NCBI GenBank assembly: GCA_016693855.1
Contig: GCA_016693855.1_4844.1
Source: a phage
DNA: 45,498 nucleotides
Reading direction: 5' to 3' (one strand)
The translations under genes and the position numbers were made by a program. This document shows, one piece after another, positions 1,508 to 29,064 of the stretch. The notes below the pieces were generated by a model. That model saw only the letters and a program-made list of their open reading frames with translations, made no database searches and had not been told where the DNA came from. Position 1 is the first letter of the stretch, and each line of letters begins with the position of its first letter.

Positions 1508-1510
1508 ATA

Positions 1511-1536
1511 AAGCCGCACGAAGCGGCCTTATTACT
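1511..1536 (+). terminator. putative intrinsic terminator (GCCGC-loop-GCGGC)
   Basis: GC stem aagCCGCacgaaGCGGCctt directly after the stop at 1507; weak U-tract. Confidence 0.45.
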
Positions 1537-1561
1537 GGCTTAAGCATTGCCAGCGTGCTTT

Positions 1562-1627
1562 CTTAATATCCAGCCCAGTAACCCATACATACCCCTACAT
1601 ATGATTGCGATAATGCTGGATATTAAG
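1562..1627. repeat. 13-bp perfect inverted repeat (CTTAATATCCAGC ... GCTGGATATTAAG) with 40-nt spacer
   Basis: Read directly from sequence at 1562-1574 and 1615-1627, inside a ~515 bp ORF-free region; a second 9-bp inverted repeat GCGCATCAG/CTGATGCGC lies at ~1738-1783. Confidence 0.7.
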
Positions 1628-1942
1628 TGTTGTGGTGGCCGGTGCTGATCTCCGGCTTGCGGTTATTTCAGACTCTCACGGGCGTTTAATTGCCCCGCCG
1701 AACAGCTCTTTTCCGCAATAGCTGCAATGTCTTTCGCGCATCAGCCTGCGCATTCACCACAACGGAAAGAGCACTGATGCGCTCACTTGGGACTCCTTAG
1801 CCATAACCCACGGGCTTCTGGTACACCAATGCTCTTACCTGTTGTGTGCCGGTTACGCGTCCGGCGTCTCTCGACCGCTAATTGTAATTGAAGGATTGGA
1901 TGTAATTAAATGAAATCATGGAACCAATCTCTGTTAAATCCT

Positions 1943-1986
1943 AATCTACACCACAAAATAATACCTGTCAACACCTGTGATATAAT
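1943..1986 (+). promoter_or_regulatory. promoter region with AATCTACACC motif and extended -10 TGATATAAT
   Basis: AATCTACACC at 1943-1952, GTCAACACC, then TGATATAAT ending at 1986, about 37 nt upstream of the major tail gene ATG; same architecture as at 3335-3387. Confidence 0.5.
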
Positions 1987-2022
1987 TACCACGTTAGCAG
2001 CTAACACAATTCGGAGAACGAA

Positions 2023-2745: not shown

Positions 2746-2775
2746 AAAAGCCCCTGAATAGGGGCTTTGTTTTAT
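2746..2775. terminator. bidirectional intrinsic terminator
   Basis: aaaAGCCCCTgaatAGGGGCTttgtttt hairpin flanked by A-run and T-run, between convergent genes 2023-2739(+) and 2772-2972(-). Confidence 0.8.
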
Positions 2776-2972
2776 TCTTGTGGTGGCTCTGGTAGTGGCA
2801 TCCAGTGAGTCACGTACTTACCATAGTGATTCCAGAATGGCTTTCCCCCATCATCAGGAACGATGTAATAATCATGCTGAACTGCGTTATTCAACGTTTC
2901 ATACACCAGGAACTCCTTATCCGTATACCCATCACCAGGAAGCATCTCACCACACTTAATCCACTGGCTCAT
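2772..2972 (-). CDS. small moron protein, DUF551-like (tentative)
   Basis: 66 aa minus-strand ORF inside the plus-strand tail module; Trp-rich C-terminus …THWMPLPEPP resembles small prophage proteins of DUF551 type as I recall them; not verified. Confidence 0.4.
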   Translation of the reverse strand: MSQWIKCGEMLPGDGYTDKEFLVYETLNNAVQHDYYIVPDDGGKPFWNHYGKYVTHWMPLPEPPQE

Positions 2973-3108
2973 ATCACCTTGTCCTCATCAAAAATAACAC
3001 CAATCACACGAAGTAAGTCTTTCGCCATTCTCTCTGCTTCTTCGTAATCGTAACCTGCATCAACATACAGTTCAGTGTAGAAAATCAGGTCTGCTTTTGT
3101 TTGTTCGT

Positions 3109-3303
3109 TCATTTCTTGTCGCCACTGTTAACTAATGCCCAAACAAGTGCTGCAACCCAACCAATAAAGCTCCATCCGACAAGAATATTCAATACACAGA
3201 TTGCGGTCGTATTTGTGTGCTTTCTTTGCAATGCCACAAATGATGGTAGAAGATAAACAAATATAACCAATCCAGCGAAAAGCAACAAAATAACAACATC
3301 CAT
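3109..3303 (-). CDS. superinfection immunity-like small membrane protein
   Basis: 64 aa from ATG at 3303 (GAGG 8 nt upstream); two hydrophobic segments and the motif NILVGWSFIGWVAALVWAL, which matches my recollection of the Imm_superinfect family signature (GWxxxGWxxALxWA). Confidence 0.55.
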   Translation of the reverse strand: MDVVILLLFAGLVIFVYLLPSFVALQRKHTNTTAICVLNILVGWSFIGWVAALVWALVNSGDKK

Positions 3304-3334
3304 AACCAACCTCATTCATATCTCGTTTCGATGA

Positions 3335-3387
3335 CTTGAATCTACATCACCGCCTCGCAGGTGTCAACACCACTGAGATGATATAAT
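3335..3387 (+). promoter_or_regulatory. promoter region with AATCTACATCA motif, GTCAACACC and extended -10 TGATATAAT
   Basis: Motif at 3339-3349; TGATATAAT at 3379-3387; ~20-30 nt upstream of the tail chaperone start; divergent from the minus-strand morons. Confidence 0.5.
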
Positions 3388-3407
3388 CAACATCAGTCAA
3401 ATTCAGG

Positions 3408-4130
3408 ATGCAAAACATGAGCAATCGCACGCCACTAACAGAAATCGGAGAGATGCGCATCTCGCTTTCCGACAGGAGTTTTTTCTTCAAGCCATCATTC
3501 CGCGCCATGAATGAAATCGGCACACCAAAGGAAATCGTTGAGGTATACGCTAAGCTCAATGGCATTGACTATGTTGCACCATTACAGCACGTAGAATACC
3601 TGCCATTTGGCGCTCAGATGCAGGTTATGAAGACCATCAGCAAGCCTGTGTATGGTCGTCATGTGCTGAGTGCGGCCTATATCGTAATGCAGTCATGCTG
3701 TGAAGATGATATTTCTGTGCTGATTGGTGGCTGGAAGCCAACGCCGCGCGGCGTGCGATATGTGCCAGGCATCATGCCAGTGAGCGACATTATTATTATT
3801 GCGCGCAACCTGATGCAGCACGGCATCATCGGTAAATCACCACTCAAAGTACCTGAGCGTCTGGAAGAGCAGAGCAAGAAAACAACAAACGAGTTTCATG
3901 CGTCGCAATACATTATCTCAGCACGCACGCATTTCGATATGACGCGAGATGAGGCTGAAAACCTGTCCATGACAGAGTTTCAGATGATGATTAAGAATAA
4001 ATATCCAGAGCCGAAAGGGTTAACGAAAGAAGAGCGCGCGGCAGAGTACGATCAGGCTAAAGCAGACCGTGAGCGCATGAAGGCACTGGCTGAACGCAAA
4101 GCGAAAAAGCGAGGAATACATAATGGCTGA
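3408..4130 (+). CDS. tail assembly chaperone (putative)
   Basis: 240 aa ORF immediately upstream of and overlapping the tape measure gene; highly charged K/E/R-rich C-terminus; assignment by conserved position. Confidence 0.5.
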   Translation: MQNMSNRTPLTEIGEMRISLSDRSFFFKPSFRAMNEIGTPKEIVEVYAKLNGIDYVAPLQHVEYLPFGAQMQVMKTISKPVYGRHVLSAAYIVMQSCCEDDISVLIGGWKPTPRGVRYVPGIMPVSDIIIIARNLMQHGIIGKSPLKVPERLEEQSKKTTNEFHASQYIISARTHFDMTRDEAENLSMTEFQMMIKNKYPEPKGLTKEERAAEYDQAKADRERMKALAERKAKKRGIHNG

Positions 4131-6492
4131 AGAAGTCGGCGGAATTGTCTATGAAGTAGGGATGGATGTTAAAGGCCTGAAAGCTGGCGCTACAACAGCC
4201 AATAAGACCTTAGATGACCTTGAATCATCAACCAACAAAACCACAGGCGCGCTTGGCAAGCTGGATAAAAACGCCAGAAATGCTGGTAACGGGATGAAGA
4301 ATGCTGGCGGCGCAGCTTCAGGGCTTAAAACCAGCATGTCGATGCTTGCTGGCGCAATCTCAGTGTCGTTAATCATTGGATGGGGTAAGGCTTTCCTTGA
4401 TATAGCTGATAACATGACACAGCTACAGGCAAGGATAAAAAGGTTAACAGGAGATGCTGAGACCGCGAAGGAAACCTTCAATTCGCTGACAAACATCGCC
4501 TCAACCACTGGCGCAAGCCTCAGCGATACTACGAAGCTGTGGGAAACATTGACGTCATCACTGAAAGAGGCAGGCGCGACAAATGCGCAGGTTCTTAACC
4601 TTACAGATACCCTGCAAAAAATAGGTCGAATCGGCGGGTCATCAACCGAAGAAATGGCGAACGCATTGCGTCAGTTCGGTCAGTCAATAGCATCTGGCAC
4701 AATCCGCGCCGAAGAATTTAACTCCATCCTTGAGCAGATGCCTGAACTTGCGCGCCAGATAGCGGCAGGCCTTGGCATTTCAATGGGTGAGCTTCGCGCC
4801 AGAATGCTAGACGGGAAACTGACGGCGGAAGATGCCCTGAACGCCATTCAGGACAGAACAAGCGTCGTCAATGCTGAGTTTGCAAAACTTCCGCGCTCTA
4901 TATCTCAGGCTACTGGCAGTCTTGAAACATCATTTGCAAAAATGATAGCGAGCATAAACGATGCAACCGGAGCCAGTTCCACTTTTGTTTCTGTTATTGA
5001 TTCCATCACTTCAGCAATAAACAGGCTTACTGGTCAAACTGTAAGTGCGGCAGAGGTTATTTCTGATTTGACGTCAACTGCCGAAATGTTCAGTCGAAGG
5101 GCGAGAACTTGGTCATGGGTTGGCATTGACGGATGGGCGGCACAAAATCAGGCAATAGCAGCGGTAGCAAATCAGGCTGCAACTTTGGTCTCAGATATGG
5201 ATGCCGTAACGAAGTCAACAGGAGAAGCAGCCAAAGCTCAGGCGCATTTGACAGTGCCGAAAGCGGCAGAGAAAGACAAAAAGAAAAAAGGCAAAAGCGC
5301 CGAAGAAAGACAAGCTGAGTCAGTTGCTGAAAAGCTGGAGAAATTACGCCAGCAAACCATGCTCAATGCCACATCTACCAGCGAACTCTCCCGCGAGCAA
5401 GCCATCCTCAATGCGCAGCAATCGCTTGGCAAAGCTGCTACTCAGGAGCAAATAAAACTGGCTGGCGAGTACGCTGCGAAGATTTGGGACCAGAAGAATG
5501 CACTGAAGGAGCAGGCGGAAGCAGAGAAAGAAAGGCAGCGCGTAGAAAAATCATATCATGGGTTGCGCGCCATTGCGTCGCCAACGACTGGCATTGATAG
5601 TGAATACCAGCAGCGCATGGCTGACCTTGACGCATACGCCGCAGCATATCCGCAAAAAATCACAGAGATTGAACAGACTCGCGCAGCAATTGAAGCACAA
5701 TACCGCCAACAGCGAATGGACGCTATGTGGGCTGAATGGCAGCAACAAAGCCTCGGCGCGCAACTGTTCGGTACCGCTCTTGATTCAGCAATGAGTACGG
5801 CATCAAACAGCATCACCGGATTGTTGACAGGTACAATGAGCGTTCAGGATGCTATGCGCAGCCTCGGCTCTACGGTACTTAACTCTCTGGTAAATAGTTT
5901 CGTCGAAATGGGCGTTCAGTGGGTTAAATCTGCGGTCATGGGGCAGACTGCGCAGGTTGCGGCAACGGCAACCACAACAGCGGCGCAAACGGCAGGACTG
6001 GCAACCACAACAGCAGCATCGACGGCGGCGGCAGCCACCACCACGGCAGCATGGACTCCTGCAGCAATCGTAGCATCAATCGGTTCATTCGGCGGGGCAG
6101 CTGCAATTGGGGTAGGTGCCGTTCTCGGAGCACTGGCGATGGGTATTGCTGGTAAGCGTAAAAATGGTGGTCCTGTTAGTGCTGGAAGTATGTACGAAGT
6201 GGGCGAAAATGGCTTGCCTGAAATATTCCAGGCGTCCAACGGTCGCCAGTATATGATTCCCGGTAACGATGGCTCAGTTATCAGCAACAAAGACCTGACA
6301 GGCGGCAGCAGTGGCGTTGTAGTTTATAATAGCATTATCAATAACAGCTCAGCTCAGGTCAGCAGCAGCGCCAGAGATAATGGTGACGGCAGCGTGACCA
6401 TTGAGACGATTGTGAGTGATATTTCGGAAAATGGCCCAATAGGGCAAGCCATCTCAAGAAACTACAACACCAACAGGAGAGCAACCGAATAA
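4123..6492 (+). CDS. tail tape measure protein
   Basis: 789 aa, largest tail ORF; long predicted alpha-helical/coiled-coil regions, Ala/Thr-rich hydrophobic stretch (…AATATTTAAQTAGLATTTAASTAAAATTTAAW…) followed by Gly-rich segment, typical of tape measure proteins. Confidence 0.85.
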   Translation: MAEEVGGIVYEVGMDVKGLKAGATTANKTLDDLESSTNKTTGALGKLDKNARNAGNGMKNAGGAASGLKTSMSMLAGAISVSLIIGWGKAFLDIADNMTQLQARIKRLTGDAETAKETFNSLTNIASTTGASLSDTTKLWETLTSSLKEAGATNAQVLNLTDTLQKIGRIGGSSTEEMANALRQFGQSIASGTIRAEEFNSILEQMPELARQIAAGLGISMGELRARMLDGKLTAEDALNAIQDRTSVVNAEFAKLPRSISQATGSLETSFAKMIASINDATGASSTFVSVIDSITSAINRLTGQTVSAAEVISDLTSTAEMFSRRARTWSWVGIDGWAAQNQAIAAVANQAATLVSDMDAVTKSTGEAAKAQAHLTVPKAAEKDKKKKGKSAEERQAESVAEKLEKLRQQTMLNATSTSELSREQAILNAQQSLGKAATQEQIKLAGEYAAKIWDQKNALKEQAEAEKERQRVEKSYHGLRAIASPTTGIDSEYQQRMADLDAYAAAYPQKITEIEQTRAAIEAQYRQQRMDAMWAEWQQQSLGAQLFGTALDSAMSTASNSITGLLTGTMSVQDAMRSLGSTVLNSLVNSFVEMGVQWVKSAVMGQTAQVAATATTTAAQTAGLATTTAASTAAAATTTAAWTPAAIVASIGSFGGAAAIGVGAVLGALAMGIAGKRKNGGPVSAGSMYEVGENGLPEIFQASNGRQYMIPGNDGSVISNKDLTGGSSGVVVYNSIINNSSAQVSSSARDNGDGSVTIETIVSDISENGPIGQAISRNYNTNRRATE

Positions 6493-15416: not shown

Positions 15417-15428
15417 AATCTACATCAA
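15417..15428 (-). promoter_or_regulatory. TTGATGTAGATT motif copy (minus-strand orientation) upstream of nuclease gene
   Basis: Plus strand reads AATCTACATCAA at 15417-15428; same motif as at seven other intergenic sites. Confidence 0.4.
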
Positions 15429-18354: not shown

Positions 18355-19305
18355 ATGTTTTATTGGGAAGAGATACAACAAAAGATGATTGGGAATTGGG
18401 AGGCAGCACTATTGTCAATAGTCAACATAGATAGGAAAATTTTTTCTGGAAAACATCAACCATGCCCTCATTGCATGGGTGTTGACCGGTTTCGTTGGGA
18501 TAATCACTTCGAAACAAAAGGAGACGGCGGCGCAATCTGCAATCAGTGCGGTTCCGGCAGCGGCATGAACTGGCTGATGAAACTTTCAGGCATGAACTTC
18601 CCAGAAGCGCTGGAGGCGCTGGGGGGATTCCTGAATATGCACCCGCGTGAAAAGCTGGAGGCAATCAGGAAGGAGTTACCGAAGATAAATCATAATGACG
18701 ACTTCATCACCGAGCAGGAAGTCGCCGCAATCATGGCTAAAACGACGCGTGTCGCGATGAATGAGTGGACGTTGATAAATGGTATTGGTTGCGACATTAA
18801 CGTCGTCAGAGGTAAATCTGGAAGGCTTATTGCGGTTGAGATGATGCGTGCTGACACAATGAAACCGTGCAACGTGGCATTCATTGGCATGGATGGGGAT
18901 GCATTCAGAACATTCTACAAAGCGGGATACAACAAAGACTCAGCAATAAGCGGAAAACTCACGCGCGGCGCGATAAGCCCAATCGGAGAAGATAACGGGA
19001 AGTTCATTTACCTTGTATCTGATTATGCCGACGCGTGGAAATGCCATTACTTCACTGGCGCGCATGTCTGGTGCTGCTGGTCGCCGGAAAACATGTGGGA
19101 AGTAGTGCGTTCTGTCAGCGATGAGACTAAAGCACGGTTACGCTGCATAGTTAATTATAAATTTGACGAACTTTGCGCTGCGGAAAATGCAGGGCTTCCG
19201 GTGATGCTTCCTGATGATGCGGACACGATAAGAATGGCAAAGAGAATCAGGAGAAAGATTTATGACGCTGGCGAGTTGATAGAAAAAATGTCAGTAAGCA
19301 GATAA
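18355..19305 (+). CDS. DNA primase (zinc-binding domain + Toprim-like)
   Basis: N-terminal …CPHCMGVDRFRWDNHFETKGDGGAICNQCG… resembles the zinc-binding domain of P4-alpha/T7-type primases (recalled, not searched); ~316 aa; encoded opposite to the surrounding replication genes. Confidence 0.65.
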   Translation: MFYWEEIQQKMIGNWEAALLSIVNIDRKIFSGKHQPCPHCMGVDRFRWDNHFETKGDGGAICNQCGSGSGMNWLMKLSGMNFPEALEALGGFLNMHPREKLEAIRKELPKINHNDDFITEQEVAAIMAKTTRVAMNEWTLINGIGCDINVVRGKSGRLIAVEMMRADTMKPCNVAFIGMDGDAFRTFYKAGYNKDSAISGKLTRGAISPIGEDNGKFIYLVSDYADAWKCHYFTGAHVWCCWSPENMWEVVRSVSDETKARLRCIVNYKFDELCAAENAGLPVMLPDDADTIRMAKRIRRKIYDAGELIEKMSVSR

Positions 19306-22268: not shown

Positions 22269-22297
22269 TTGACGTAGAATTGTTATTGATGTAGATT
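22269..22297 (+). promoter_or_regulatory. early rightward promoter: TTGACG-N17-TAGATT built from two tandem TTGAYGTAGAWT motif copies
   Basis: TTGACGTAGAAT at 22269-22280 and TTGATGTAGATT at 22286-22297; the TTGACG of copy 1 and TAGATT of copy 2 are spaced 17 nt apart like sigma70 -35/-10 elements; ~30 nt upstream of the first rightward ORF. Confidence 0.5.
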
Positions 22298-24593: not shown

Positions 24594-25082
24594 ATGACGA
24601 AAGAAAGAGATTGGAATGAGGTCTTTGAATATATAGATGGGCGCTTAATTTGGAAGATCAAACCTTGCAATAACGTAAAAGAATACTCACCAGCTGGGTC
24701 AACGCGAAACGATGGCTACCTGCATGTTGGTTTTATGAAAAAACTACATATGGTTCATAGAATTATATGGGAAATGCATAACGGAAAAATACCAGATGGG
24801 ATGGAGATTGACCATGTAAACCATAACAAAATGGACAACAGAATTGAGAATTTGCGGCTTGTTCGGCACGGAAGCAACCAAAGGAATAAATCTAAACAGG
24901 GGAATAACACTAGTGGTGTGACTGGTGTAACATGGAGCAGAAGGGATAAAAAGTGGATTGCGCAGATAATGGTTGAAAGAAAAAACATCCATCTTGGATA
25001 CTTCAGTGACTTCAACTCCGCAGTGGCGGCAAGGAAAAATGCGGAAAAAGAGCATCGCTTTCACAAGAACCATGGTATATAA
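24594..25082 (+). CDS. HNH homing endonuclease with AP2-like domain
   Basis: …HRIIWEMHNGKIPDGMEIDHVNHNKMDNRIENLRLV… HNH motif; …SGVTGVTWSRRDKKWIAQI…LGYFSDFNSAVAARKNAE… AP2-type domain; close paralog of the ORF at 28588-29064. Confidence 0.85.
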   Translation: MTKERDWNEVFEYIDGRLIWKIKPCNNVKEYSPAGSTRNDGYLHVGFMKKLHMVHRIIWEMHNGKIPDGMEIDHVNHNKMDNRIENLRLVRHGSNQRNKSKQGNNTSGVTGVTWSRRDKKWIAQIMVERKNIHLGYFSDFNSAVAARKNAEKEHRFHKNHGI

Positions 25083-28587: not shown

Positions 28588-29064
28588 ATGAACTGGAATG
28601 AACATTTCTCAATAAAATAAGATGGGTTGCACTGGAAGCGAGTTAAAACAAACAGGCAAAAGACGACAAAAGCTGGTTATGTAAGCAATAAAGATGGATA
28701 CGTAAGAGTTATGCTTGATAGTAAATGCTATCTTGCTCACCGTATCATCTGGGAAATGCATAACGGCCCAATACCAGATGGTGTGCAGATCGACCATATC
28801 AACCATATCCGCCATGACAACAGAATTGAAAACCTTAGATTGGTAAGTAATCAGGATAACCAGAAGAACACAAAGAGGAGCAGAAATAACAAATCTGGTG
28901 TAACTGGTGTTTGCTGGTACCCAGCATATGAGAAGTGGAGAGCGTACATCTGCATAGATGGAAAGCAAATAACTCTTGGGTATTTTTCAAGTATCAAGTC
29001 AGTAGCAACAGCAAGAAAGGAAGCTGAGCTAAGATATGACTTTCACAAGAACCACGGCGCTTGA
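28588..29064 (+). pseudogene. HNH-AP2 homing endonuclease interrupted by in-frame TAA at codon 11 (pseudogene, or expressed from downstream TTG 28627)
   Basis: ATG 28588 with GAGGG RBS; reads MNWNEHFSIK-TAA(28618-28620)-DGLHWKRVK…, which aligns with the intact N-terminus of the 24594 paralog (…DWNEVFEYIDGRLIWKIK…); downstream HNH (…IDHINHIRHDNRIENLRLV…) and AP2 regions are intact. Confidence 0.6.

What the first reader, a model, noticed from the sequence alone, without database searches (positions are those of the whole stretch)
2772..3303. Superinfection-immunity-like membrane protein and a second small moron inserted antisense between major tail and chaperone genes
Two minus-strand ORFs interrupt the otherwise co-directional tail operon. 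They are bracketed by a bidirectional terminator on one side and a promoter region with the conserved motif on the other, so they are expressed independently of the late genes. One has the GW..GW..AL.WA membrane signature I associate with Imm-type superinfection immunity proteins; the other has a DUF551-like Trp-rich C-terminus. Likely an exclusion module protecting the infected cell.
Basis: partly seen in the sequence, partly recalled or inferred. Interest (0 to 1): 0.5.

Follow-up and report, generated by a model that had tools for sequence, protein, structure and literature searches.

The report
T4-Imm-like antisense cassette in tail operon
A small three-gene cassette, read backwards inside the tail genes of a virulent Skatevirus-like phage, encodes a relative of the phage T4 protein that stops a second phage injecting its DNA; public annotations of sister phages already name it, so it is ordinary.

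Summary
The feature is real, but it holds three minus-strand genes, not two. They are joined by ATGA start/stop overlaps: an Imm-like membrane protein (3109-3303, 64 aa), an overlooked 47-aa acidic protein (2969-3112) and a DUF551 protein (2772-2972). Both family guesses hold. PF14373 Imm_superinfect scores 66.9 bits (cut-off 27.9) and DUF551 scores 44.5 bits (cut-off 22).

The Imm-like protein is 34% identical to T4 Imm (E 1e-12). It keeps the two residues (T4 R33 and W50) that a 2026 preprint found important for exclusion, which in T4 works by binding the tape measure protein.

The bidirectional terminator (2747-2768) and a conserved sigma-70-type promoter (3367..3339) are confirmed. Distant relatives have the two flanking tail genes adjacent, so this is a clade-specific insertion with low GC.

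Across about 40 relatives the cassette is modular. The 47-aa gene is the constant member, and Imm, NinX and a secreted 97-aa protein come and go. So "exclusion module" is supported for Imm only.

RefSeq and BASEL annotations of sister phages already call this gene superinfection immunity. I found no experiment on it. Interest is low to moderate.

The parts
2747..2768 (.). Bidirectional intrinsic terminator. It is a 9-bp GC-rich stem with a 4-nt loop and T-runs on both strands. It ends both the major tail protein transcript (+) and the cassette transcript (-).
   Evidence: Scan. RNA folding gives -17.1 and -15.0 kcal/mol, z = -5.0 and -4.2. Similar hairpins occur at 19302, 31427 and 34558 (family D2).
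2772..2972 (-). DUF551 protein, 66 aa, the last gene of the cassette. It has a small beta-rich fold and its function is unknown.
   Evidence: PF04448 scores 44.5 bits against a cut-off of 22. dN/dS is 0.37. The AF2 model has pLDDT 90 with three strands and no significant PDB fold match. RefSeq annotates the IME207 orthologue as a DUF551 domain-containing protein.
2969..3112 (-). 47-aa acidic (net charge about -7) two-helix protein, 'p47' (phrog_17424). It is the constant member of the cassette across the clade, and its function is unknown.
   Evidence: phrog_17424 matches at 8.2e-37. There is no Pfam, NCBIfam, PADLOC or PDB match. It is present in 205 phage records and in about 40 loci. dN/dS is 0.125. 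The AF2 model is a helical hairpin with pLDDT 90. Only 10 representatives match among 1.84 billion proteins.
3109..3303 (-). Imm-like superinfection-immunity membrane protein, 64 aa, the first gene of the cassette. It has two strongly hydrophobic segments, at residues 1-19 and 40-58.
   Evidence: PF14373 scores 66.9 bits against a cut-off of 27.9. It is 34% identical to T4 Imm, E 1e-12. T4 R33 and W50 correspond to R27 and W44 here, which are invariant in alignment A2. Hydropathy is. dN/dS is 0.08.
3310..3313 (-). Shine-Dalgarno GAGG, 6 nt upstream of the ATG at 3303.
   Evidence: Read directly from the sequence. It is conserved as GAGGTGA in sister phages, where the upstream ATG is followed by a stop two codons later.
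3339..3367 (-). Sigma-70-type promoter of the cassette: -35 TTGACA (3367..3362), 17-nt spacer, -10 TAGATT (3344..3339).
   Evidence: Scan. Both hexamers are invariant in 7 phages while the spacer diverges. The -10 region and leader resemble the promoters at 15418 (-) and 22288 (+).
3379..3387 (+). Divergent extended -10 element TGATATAAT, upstream of the DUF6246 and tape-measure genes.
   Evidence: Read directly from the sequence. It is conserved in relatives. ASO78B annotators also predicted divergent promoters here.

Best explanation
The region is a clade-specific accessory-gene cassette with its own transcription signals. It is inserted antisense between the major tail protein gene and the DUF6246/tape-measure genes of a virulent Skatevirus-like siphovirus.

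Host RNA polymerase probably transcribes it from a conserved sigma-70 promoter (inferred). Expression is probably early, because the promoter shares its -10 region and leader with the promoters of the recombination/SSB operon and of a cluster of small ORFs typical of early genes (inferred). Transcription would stop at the bidirectional terminator.

The first gene encodes a true homologue of T4 Imm. [quoted passage not shown] The most likely mechanism is binding the incoming tape measure protein and preventing it from forming the DNA channel, as reported for T4 Imm and gp29. This step is inferred, not shown.

The translationally coupled 47-aa and DUF551 proteins lack hydrophobic segments, so they are probably cytoplasmic. 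Their function is unknown. They occupy their own slots in a modular cassette and are not needed for, or tied to, the Imm function.
For: Family membership:
- Pfam and PHROG hits are well above threshold.
- Direct BLASTP against T4 Imm gives 34% identity over 62 aa, E 1e-12.
- tblastn hits T-even imm genes at 36-48% identity.
- R33 and W50 of T4 Imm, whose mutation lowers exclusion, are conserved as R27 and W44.
- There are two strongly hydrophobic segments.

Mechanism precedent: T4 Imm co-purifies with, and was imaged by cryo-EM bound to, the tape-measure helical-bundle domain (bioRxiv 10.64898/2026.03.06.709160).

Transcription unit:
- Promoter and terminator are found.
- The hexamers are invariant across diverged relatives.
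- The motif is shared with the ExoVIII/Erf/SSB operon and with a cluster of small ORFs.

Insertion:
- In relatives whose DUF6246 is 47% identical or less, the tail genes lie 40-310 nt apart.
- GC is 0.40-0.42 in the cassette against 0.49-0.50 in the flanks.

Other points:
- The closest annotated relative lists no integrase or repressor and has a separate lysis cassette, so Imm is not the holin.
- Modularity: p47 occurs without Imm in Klebsiella phages, and Imm, NinX and the secreted 97-aa protein come and go.
- Imm-family genes also sit beside the chaperone and tape-measure genes in Jerseyvirus, in a Pseudomonas siphovirus and in a Vibrio myovirus.
Against: - I found no experiment on any Imm homologue from this clade. 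Exclusion is inferred from one characterised family member that is only 34% identical.
- The siphovirus tape measure shows only a weak local similarity to T4 gp29 (E 0.001).
- Imm variants do not sort with tape-measure types, and Imm presence does not track the C-terminal hydrophobic segment of the tape measure. So there is no co-evolution signal for a specific Imm-tape-measure pair.
- Eight of 33 typed relatives lack Imm altogether, so it is dispensable.
- Early timing rests on promoter resemblance only.
Confidence: 0.6

Rival explanations
1. All three genes act together as one exclusion module. In this reading p47 and DUF551 are partners or regulators of Imm.
For: The three ORFs are translationally coupled by ATGA overlaps. 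They share one promoter and one terminator. The order Imm > p47 > DUF551 is kept in most relatives.
Against: - p47 is the first gene of the cassette, with no Imm, in Klebsiella phages.
- Eight of 33 typed Skatevirus-like genomes lack Imm but keep p47 and mostly DUF551.
- One relative has neither Imm nor DUF551 (L023).
- NinX or HNH genes are inserted between members in other relatives.
- DUF551 is a portable domain found in unrelated lambdoid proteins.
- T4 Imm works alone from a plasmid.
Confidence: 0.1
2. The Imm-family protein does not exclude phages here. It would be a small membrane protein with another role, for example modulating membrane potential, lysis timing or a host membrane process. 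The Pfam name would then over-interpret a two-helix hydrophobic domain.
For: - The family name rests on T4 Imm alone, and I found no experimental paper on any other member.
- The domain is widespread: 1811 phage records, including mycobacteriophages and Gram-positive phages.
- Short hydrophobic proteins match easily. Weak DUF3302 and 2TM-TIR hits come from hydrophobicity.
- Induced T4 Imm is toxic at higher levels.
Against: - The similarity to T4 Imm is specific, not compositional. E is 1e-12 with composition adjustment, and the polar or aromatic functional residues R and W and the YxxP motif are conserved.
- A dedicated holin, endolysin and spanin set lies elsewhere in the closest relative.
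- The gene is placed next to tape-measure genes in four lineages.
Confidence: 0.2
3. The cassette mainly serves counter-defence or host takeover. The cytoplasmic p47 (acidic, possibly a protein or DNA mimic), DUF551 and, in relatives, NinX would be the main cargo, and Imm would be one optional passenger.
For: - p47 is the invariant and highly conserved member.
- It is small, acidic and helical.
- NinX and DUF551 come from lambdoid early 'ea/nin' accessory regions.
- Its promoter resembles those of two other non-structural transcription units, inferred to be early.
Against: - No hit in PADLOC, PDB, or by fold search links any of them to a known anti-defence family.
- This reading does not conflict with Imm being an exclusion protein. 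It changes only the emphasis.
Confidence: 0.1

Closest known systems
Phage T4 Imm (immunity to superinfection; PF14373 Imm_superinfect)
   Same: It is a homologue: 34% identity, E 1e-12, with a Pfam hit above threshold. It is a small inner-membrane-type protein. R33 and W50 are conserved. It is carried by a virulent phage, and the gene has its own promoter.
   Different: - It is 64 aa against 83 aa and lacks the T4 C-terminal tail.
- The phage is a siphovirus with a non-contractile tail and an O-antigen tailspike, not a T-even myovirus.
- The gene lies antisense inside the tail operon next to the tape-measure gene, whereas T4 imm lies between genes 42 and 43.
- The target tape measure is essentially unrelated to gp29.
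- Exclusion is untested.
HK97 gp15 moron (YebO-like inner-membrane superinfection exclusion protein)
   Same: The position and logic match. It is a small membrane protein gene with its own transcription signals, inserted in the tail operon next to the chaperone and tape-measure genes. It blocks genome entry in a tail-dependent or tape-measure-dependent way (PMC3594210).
   Different: - HK97 gp15 belongs to the YebO family according to PMC3594210, not to PF14373. I did not compare the sequences directly.
- HK97 is temperate and gp15 is expressed from the prophage. This phage group shows no lysogeny genes.
- The cassette here is antisense and holds three genes.
Annotated orthologues in Skatevirus/Shuimuvirus-like phages (IME207 gp62-64, VSt472 gp50-53, ChristineMuster_Bas80 0058-0060, KFSST1 ORF4)
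   Same: They have the same cassette at the same place, 89-100% identical. They are already labelled 'immunity to superinfection', 'superinfection immunity protein; moron' and 'DUF551 domain-containing protein'.
   Different: They differ only in optional slots (NinX/DUF2591, a secreted 97-aa protein, a 93-aa protein) and in which tape-measure type follows.
DUF551 proteins of lambdoid phages and prophages (Ea22 variant V2 C-terminus, CPS-53 YfdS)
   Same: They share the Pfam domain. It is a portable small domain in early or accessory regions.
   Different: Here the domain stands alone in a 66-aa protein. No function is established for any member.
Receptor-blocking exclusion proteins of virulent siphoviruses (T1 Cor, T5 Llp)
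   Same: They serve the same general purpose, as virulent-phage-encoded exclusion.
   Different: Those are lipoproteins that inactivate outer-membrane porin receptors and are encoded next to receptor-binding proteins. The protein here is an inner-membrane type and sits next to the tape measure. Phages of this group use O-antigen as their receptor.

Membership tests
Imm_superinfect (PF14373) / T4 Imm | Match to the family profile above the curated gathering score | tested here: met
   66.9 bits against a cut-off of 27.9, covering profile positions 1-42 of 42. phrog_1039 matches at 2.9e-25.
Imm_superinfect (PF14373) / T4 Imm | Direct sequence similarity to T4 Imm itself | tested here: met
   BLASTP gives 34% identity over 62 aa, E 1e-12. 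The result is the same against RB9 Imm.
Imm_superinfect (PF14373) / T4 Imm | Small integral membrane protein with hydrophobic helices | tested here: met
   The protein is 64 aa. Kyte-Doolittle 19-residue maxima are 2.77 (residues 1-19) and 2.16 (residues 40-58). Topology was not determined.
Imm_superinfect (PF14373) / T4 Imm | Residues needed for T4 Imm activity (R33 in the helical core, W50 in the tape-measure-facing loop) | tested here: met
   They align to R27 and W44, which are invariant in the 6-sequence alignment A2. The mutant data come from the preprint.
Imm_superinfect (PF14373) / T4 Imm | Expressed early in infection | tested here: inconclusive
   There is a conserved sigma-70-type promoter. 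It shares its -10 region and leader with the promoters of the recombination/SSB operon and of a cluster of small ORFs. No expression data exist.
Imm_superinfect (PF14373) / T4 Imm | Blocks genome entry of superinfecting phage by binding its tape measure protein | not testable with these tools
   This needs plating, DNA-entry and binding assays. Comparative tests for Imm-tape-measure co-variation were negative.
DUF551 (PF04448) | Match to the family profile above the gathering score | tested here: met
   44.5 bits against a cut-off of 22, covering profile positions 1-68 of 68. The THWMPLPEPP C-terminus is conserved.
Moron (Juhala/Hendrix sense) | Own promoter and terminator | tested here: met
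   Both are present by sequence and conservation only.
Moron (Juhala/Hendrix sense) | Inserted between genes that are adjacent in related phages | tested here: met
   In the relatives whose DUF6246 is 32-47% identical, the major tail protein and DUF6246 genes are 40-310 nt apart and no cassette homologue lies between them.
Moron (Juhala/Hendrix sense) | Base composition differs from the flanking genes | tested here: met
   GC is 0.40-0.42 across 2801-3600 against 0.48-0.51 in the flanks.
Moron (Juhala/Hendrix sense) | Expressed from a repressed prophage for the benefit of the lysogen | tested here: not met
   The closest fully annotated relative lists no integrase or repressor, and papers describe the group as lytic. 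The cassette is moron-like in structure but not in lifestyle.
HK97 gp15 / YebO-type exclusion | Sequence membership of the YebO family | not tested
   No gp15 sequence was compared. The Pfam scan of the window protein reported PF14373, not a YebO family.

The most novel reading that the evidence does not exclude
Imm-family proteins may be general immunity proteins directed at the tape measure, and may be repeatedly captured right next to the chaperone and tape-measure genes of unrelated tailed phages. I saw this placement in Skatevirus-like phages, Jerseyvirus, a lambda-like Pseudomonas siphovirus and a Vibrio myovirus. That would keep the immunity gene linked to its target, much as a colicin gene is linked to its immunity gene.

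In this clade the ordered slots could form a layered set of infected-cell protection and host-takeover genes: a secreted 97-aa protein, then the inner-membrane Imm, then the cytoplasmic p47, NinX and DUF551. The tape-measure type would then decide whether Imm is kept.
Probability: 0.15. Interest if true: 0.55.

Novelty: already known. Interest (0 to 1): 0.25.

Why it matters
In practice this changes little. The gene family is known and the orthologues are already annotated.

Its modest value is as a test system. The phage is a small virulent siphovirus and carries a T4-Imm homologue about 1 kb from its own tape-measure gene, with natural relatives that lack Imm or carry different tape-measure types. 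That makes it convenient for asking whether the newly proposed mechanism, in which Imm binds the tape measure and blocks the DNA channel, extends beyond T-even myoviruses. It could also show what sets exclusion specificity, which matters when designing phage cocktails. The invariant 47-aa protein is an uncharacterised, clade-restricted gene that may be worth a knockout.

Tried and rejected
**Searches that found nothing useful**
- PADLOC defence models gave only a weak hydrophobic 2TM-TIR hit for Imm and nothing for the other proteins.
- NCBIfam gave no hits.
- PDB sequence searches gave no meaningful hits for any of the three proteins.
- Foldseek against the PDB found nothing significant with the confident AF2 models. 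The best E-values were 0.68 for DUF551 (weak Tudor/SH3-like barrels) and 2.3 for p47.
- A profile search of p47 against 1.84 billion representatives found only its own narrow family. Its genomic context is always the same.
- Rfam and tRNA scans found nothing in or near the cassette.

**Tests of a link between Imm and the tape measure**
- All 18 short (N0-type) tape measures come with Imm, and all 8 Imm-less genomes have long tape measures (Fisher p = 4.6e-4). Four of the six further contigs have short tape measures with Imm, and the other two have long tape measures without it.
- This is confounded by common descent. Near-identical Imm proteins occur with four tape-measure N-terminal types, and the C-terminal hydrophobic segment does not track Imm presence. 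I therefore rejected it as evidence of co-evolution.
- T4 gp29 against this tape measure gave only one weak local match (E 0.001).

**Other ideas rejected**
- Imm as the holin: a separate lysis cassette exists in the closest relative.
- A second DUF551 copy in the window, as in IME207 gp52: none was found.
- The 68-aa start at 3315: it is not conserved.

Full report
**What the window is**

The 45.5-kb window is nearly a whole genome of a small siphovirus. It belongs to the Skatevirus/Shuimuvirus-like cluster, which includes IME207, HC6, ASO78B and ChristineMuster_Bas80. These relatives are 88-92% identical to it at the nucleotide level. The closest fully annotated relative lists no integrase or repressor and has a separate endolysin/holin/spanin cassette. 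Papers describe the group as lytic, O-antigen-dependent phages.

**The observation**

Between the major tail protein gene (2023-2739, +; phrog_853) and the DUF6246 gene (3408-4130, +) lie three minus-strand ORFs, not two. The DUF6246 gene overlaps the start of the tape-measure gene (4123-6492). The three ORFs are linked by ATGA start/stop overlaps:
- Imm-like, 3109-3303, 64 aa.
- A 47-aa ORF, 2969-3112, here called p47.
- A DUF551 ORF, 2772-2972, 66 aa.

The Imm ORF could begin at 3315. In ASO78B and VSt472, however, that upstream ATG runs into a stop two codons later, while the ATG equivalent to 3303 and its GAGG(TGA) ribosome-binding site are kept. So 3303 is the conserved start.

Across 29-42 orthologues from related genomes, all three ORFs show purifying selection. 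dN/dS is 0.08 for Imm, 0.125 for p47 and 0.37 for DUF551.

**Transcription signals**

A 9-bp GC-rich hairpin at 2747-2768 has T-runs on both strands. It folds at -17.1 and -15.0 kcal/mol, with z = -5.0 and -4.2.

On the other side, the minus strand carries TTGACA-17-TAGATT at 3367..3339. In an alignment of seven phages, both hexamers are invariant, including in two Klebsiella phages whose spacer and flanks have diverged. That argues the promoter is functional.

A divergent extended -10 element (TGATATAAT, 3379-3387) faces the DUF6246 and tape-measure genes.

- The same GTGTTGACA-N17-TAGATT is found at 1974..1943, upstream of the major tail gene.
- The core GATGTAGAT occurs five times in the window against 0.38 expected.
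- Two of the other copies sit in promoter-like contexts. One is upstream of the ExoVIII/Erf/SSB operon (15418, -) and one is upstream of a run of small ORFs that look like early genes (22288, +).

From this I infer, but cannot show, that the cassette belongs to an early class transcribed by host polymerase.

**Insertion character**

I anchored on DUF6246 and fetched 55 IMG/VR loci.
- In the relatives whose DUF6246 is 32-47% identical, the major tail and DUF6246 genes lie 40-310 nt apart and no cassette homologue lies between them.
- In all Skatevirus-like genomes and in the Klebsiella Roufvirus-like genomes, a 670-1660 nt antisense cassette separates them.
- GC falls to 0.40-0.42 in the cassette against 0.49-0.50 on either side.

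So this is a clade-specific insertion with the structure of a moron, carried by a phage group with no sign of lysogeny.

**The genes**

Imm-like protein:
- It scores 66.9 bits on PF14373 (cut-off 27.9) and hits phrog_1039 'immunity to superinfection'.
- Against T4 Imm itself it is 34% identical over 62 residues, E 1e-12.
- tblastn finds T-even imm genes at 36-48% identity among 1811 phage records.
- It has two strongly hydrophobic segments.
- A 2026 preprint (10.64898/2026.03.06.709160) reports that T4 Imm co-purifies with the tape measure protein gp29 and was imaged by cryo-EM on its helical-bundle domain. The preprint also reports that R33A and W50A weaken exclusion. Those residues align to R27 and W44 here and are invariant in my alignment.

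DUF551 protein:
- It scores 44.5 bits (cut-off 22).
- The AF2 model is confident (pLDDT 90) and shows a small beta-rich domain with no significant PDB neighbour.
- The literature treats DUF551 as an uncharacterised portable domain, found for example in Ea22 variant V2 and YfdS.

p47:
- It matches only phrog_17424.
- It is acidic and is predicted to be a two-helix hairpin (pLDDT 90) with no fold match.
- It has only 10 representatives among 1.84 billion proteins.
- It is always found in this same context.

**Cassette architecture in relatives**

The slots are ordered: promoter, then an optional 93-aa protein, an optional 97-aa protein with a signal peptide (phrog_2315), an optional Imm, p47, an optional NinX/DUF2591, DUF551, and the terminator.
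- p47 is present in every cassette-bearing genome.
- DUF551 is present in nearly every Skatevirus-like genome. The Klebsiella phages carry other genes, such as NinX or an HNH endonuclease, in its place.
- Every Skatevirus-like genome has Imm, the secreted 97-aa protein, or both. The Klebsiella phages start with p47 and have neither.

This modularity argues against a single three-gene exclusion machine. It fits independent accessory genes that share one transcription unit.

**Link to the tape measure**

Imm-family genes also sit beside the chaperone and tape-measure genes in three other lineages:
- A Jerseyvirus, where the gene is antisense.
- Pseudomonas phage YMC11/02/R656, where a 195-aa Imm-domain protein lies between the chaperone genes and the tape-measure gene, which is the HK97 gp15 position.
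- Vibrio myovirus K374, where the gene is antisense between the tube gene and a probable tape-measure gene.

The pattern does not hold in T4, Acinetobacter AB1, Enterococcus Toszka or Gordonia LastResort.

Within the clade, all 18 short-type tape measures come with Imm, and all 8 Imm-less genomes have long tape measures (Fisher p = 4.6e-4). The six extra contigs agree. However, this is not corrected for shared ancestry. Near-identical Imm proteins accompany four tape-measure N-terminal types, and the C-terminal hydrophobic segment does not track Imm presence. T4 gp29 and this tape measure share only one weak local match (E 0.001). The tape-measure-binding mechanism is therefore a homology-based inference without independent comparative support.

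**Prior knowledge**

RefSeq labels the orthologues 'immunity to superinfection' and 'DUF551 domain-containing protein'. The BASEL record for Bas80 says 'superinfection immunity protein; moron'. A 2025 paper tabulates the gene between the tape-measure and major tail genes. A 2019 announcement noted a T4 Imm-like protein in a Guernseyvirinae-like siphophage. I found no functional study of any non-T-even member.

HK97 gp15 is the closest functional and positional analogue. It is a small inner-membrane exclusion protein encoded by a moron between the chaperone and tape-measure genes.

**Verdict**

The family assignments and the independent transcription unit are supported. The label 'exclusion module' is justified for Imm only, and only by homology. 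The feature is already known at the annotation level. My confidence in family membership is about 0.95, and in an actual superinfection-exclusion role about 0.6.

Noticed in passing
window 1508-2022 (promoter 1971..1943, minus strand): A second antisense slot lies between the tail-terminator gene and the major tail gene. It has the same GTGTTGACA-N17-TAGATT promoter and a bidirectional terminator at 1513-1527. In the window it is 515 nt with no tRNA and no ORF over 36 aa. About 20 of 35 relatives carry minus-strand tRNA genes (Met, Arg, Ser, Ile, Thr) there. The predicted minus-strand RNA folds with z = -4.5. It may be a decayed tRNA slot or a non-coding RNA.
   Followed up: partly
window 3340, 15418, 27253 (minus strand); 22288, 33054 (plus strand): The 9-mer GATGTAGAT occurs 5 times against 0.38 expected. 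At 3340, 15418 and 22288 it forms the -10 region of promoter-like sites with similar leaders (TCATCGAAAC). A related TTGACGTAGATTGA motif recurs at 22269, 33091 and 44601. This looks like a phage promoter class or an operator.
   Followed up: partly
L004:1498-1791 (Seszw_1 gp30) and 21 other related loci; absent from the window: A 97-116 aa protein with a signal peptide and two cysteines (phrog_2315, no Pfam) occupies the first cassette slot, either instead of Imm or upstream of it. Every Skatevirus-like genome examined has this protein, Imm, or both. It could be a periplasmic counterpart in the manner of T4 Spackle, but no similarity was found.
   Followed up: partly
window 4123-6492 and the tape-measure genes of L010-L045: The tape measure proteins are strongly mosaic. 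There are five N-terminal types with lengths from 778 to 1097 aa, joined to a more conserved C-terminal half. All short-type tape measures co-occur with Imm.
   Followed up: partly
L071:3468-4055; L009:2492-2671; L078:4001-4195: Imm_superinfect genes lie directly beside tail assembly chaperone and tape-measure genes in three other lineages: a lambda-like Pseudomonas siphovirus (as a 195-aa protein with a possible zinc-ribbon C-terminal part), a Jerseyvirus and a Vibrio myovirus.
   Followed up: partly
window 4351-4524 (tape-measure residues 77-134): There is a weak local similarity to T4 gp29 residues 307-370, which lie inside the fragment that binds Imm in T4. It is 33% identical with pairwise E 0.001. 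This is too weak to interpret.
   Followed up: no
window 3408-4130: The gene in the usual tail-assembly-chaperone position is a single 240-aa DUF6246 ORF that overlaps the tape-measure start by 8 nt. Its chaperone role is only a positional inference, and I did not look for a G/GT-type frameshift.
   Followed up: no
window 24748-24850 and 28730-28832: A 103-nt direct repeat, 76% identical, with copies 3982 nt apart in the plus-strand gene block. It is not explained.
   Followed up: no
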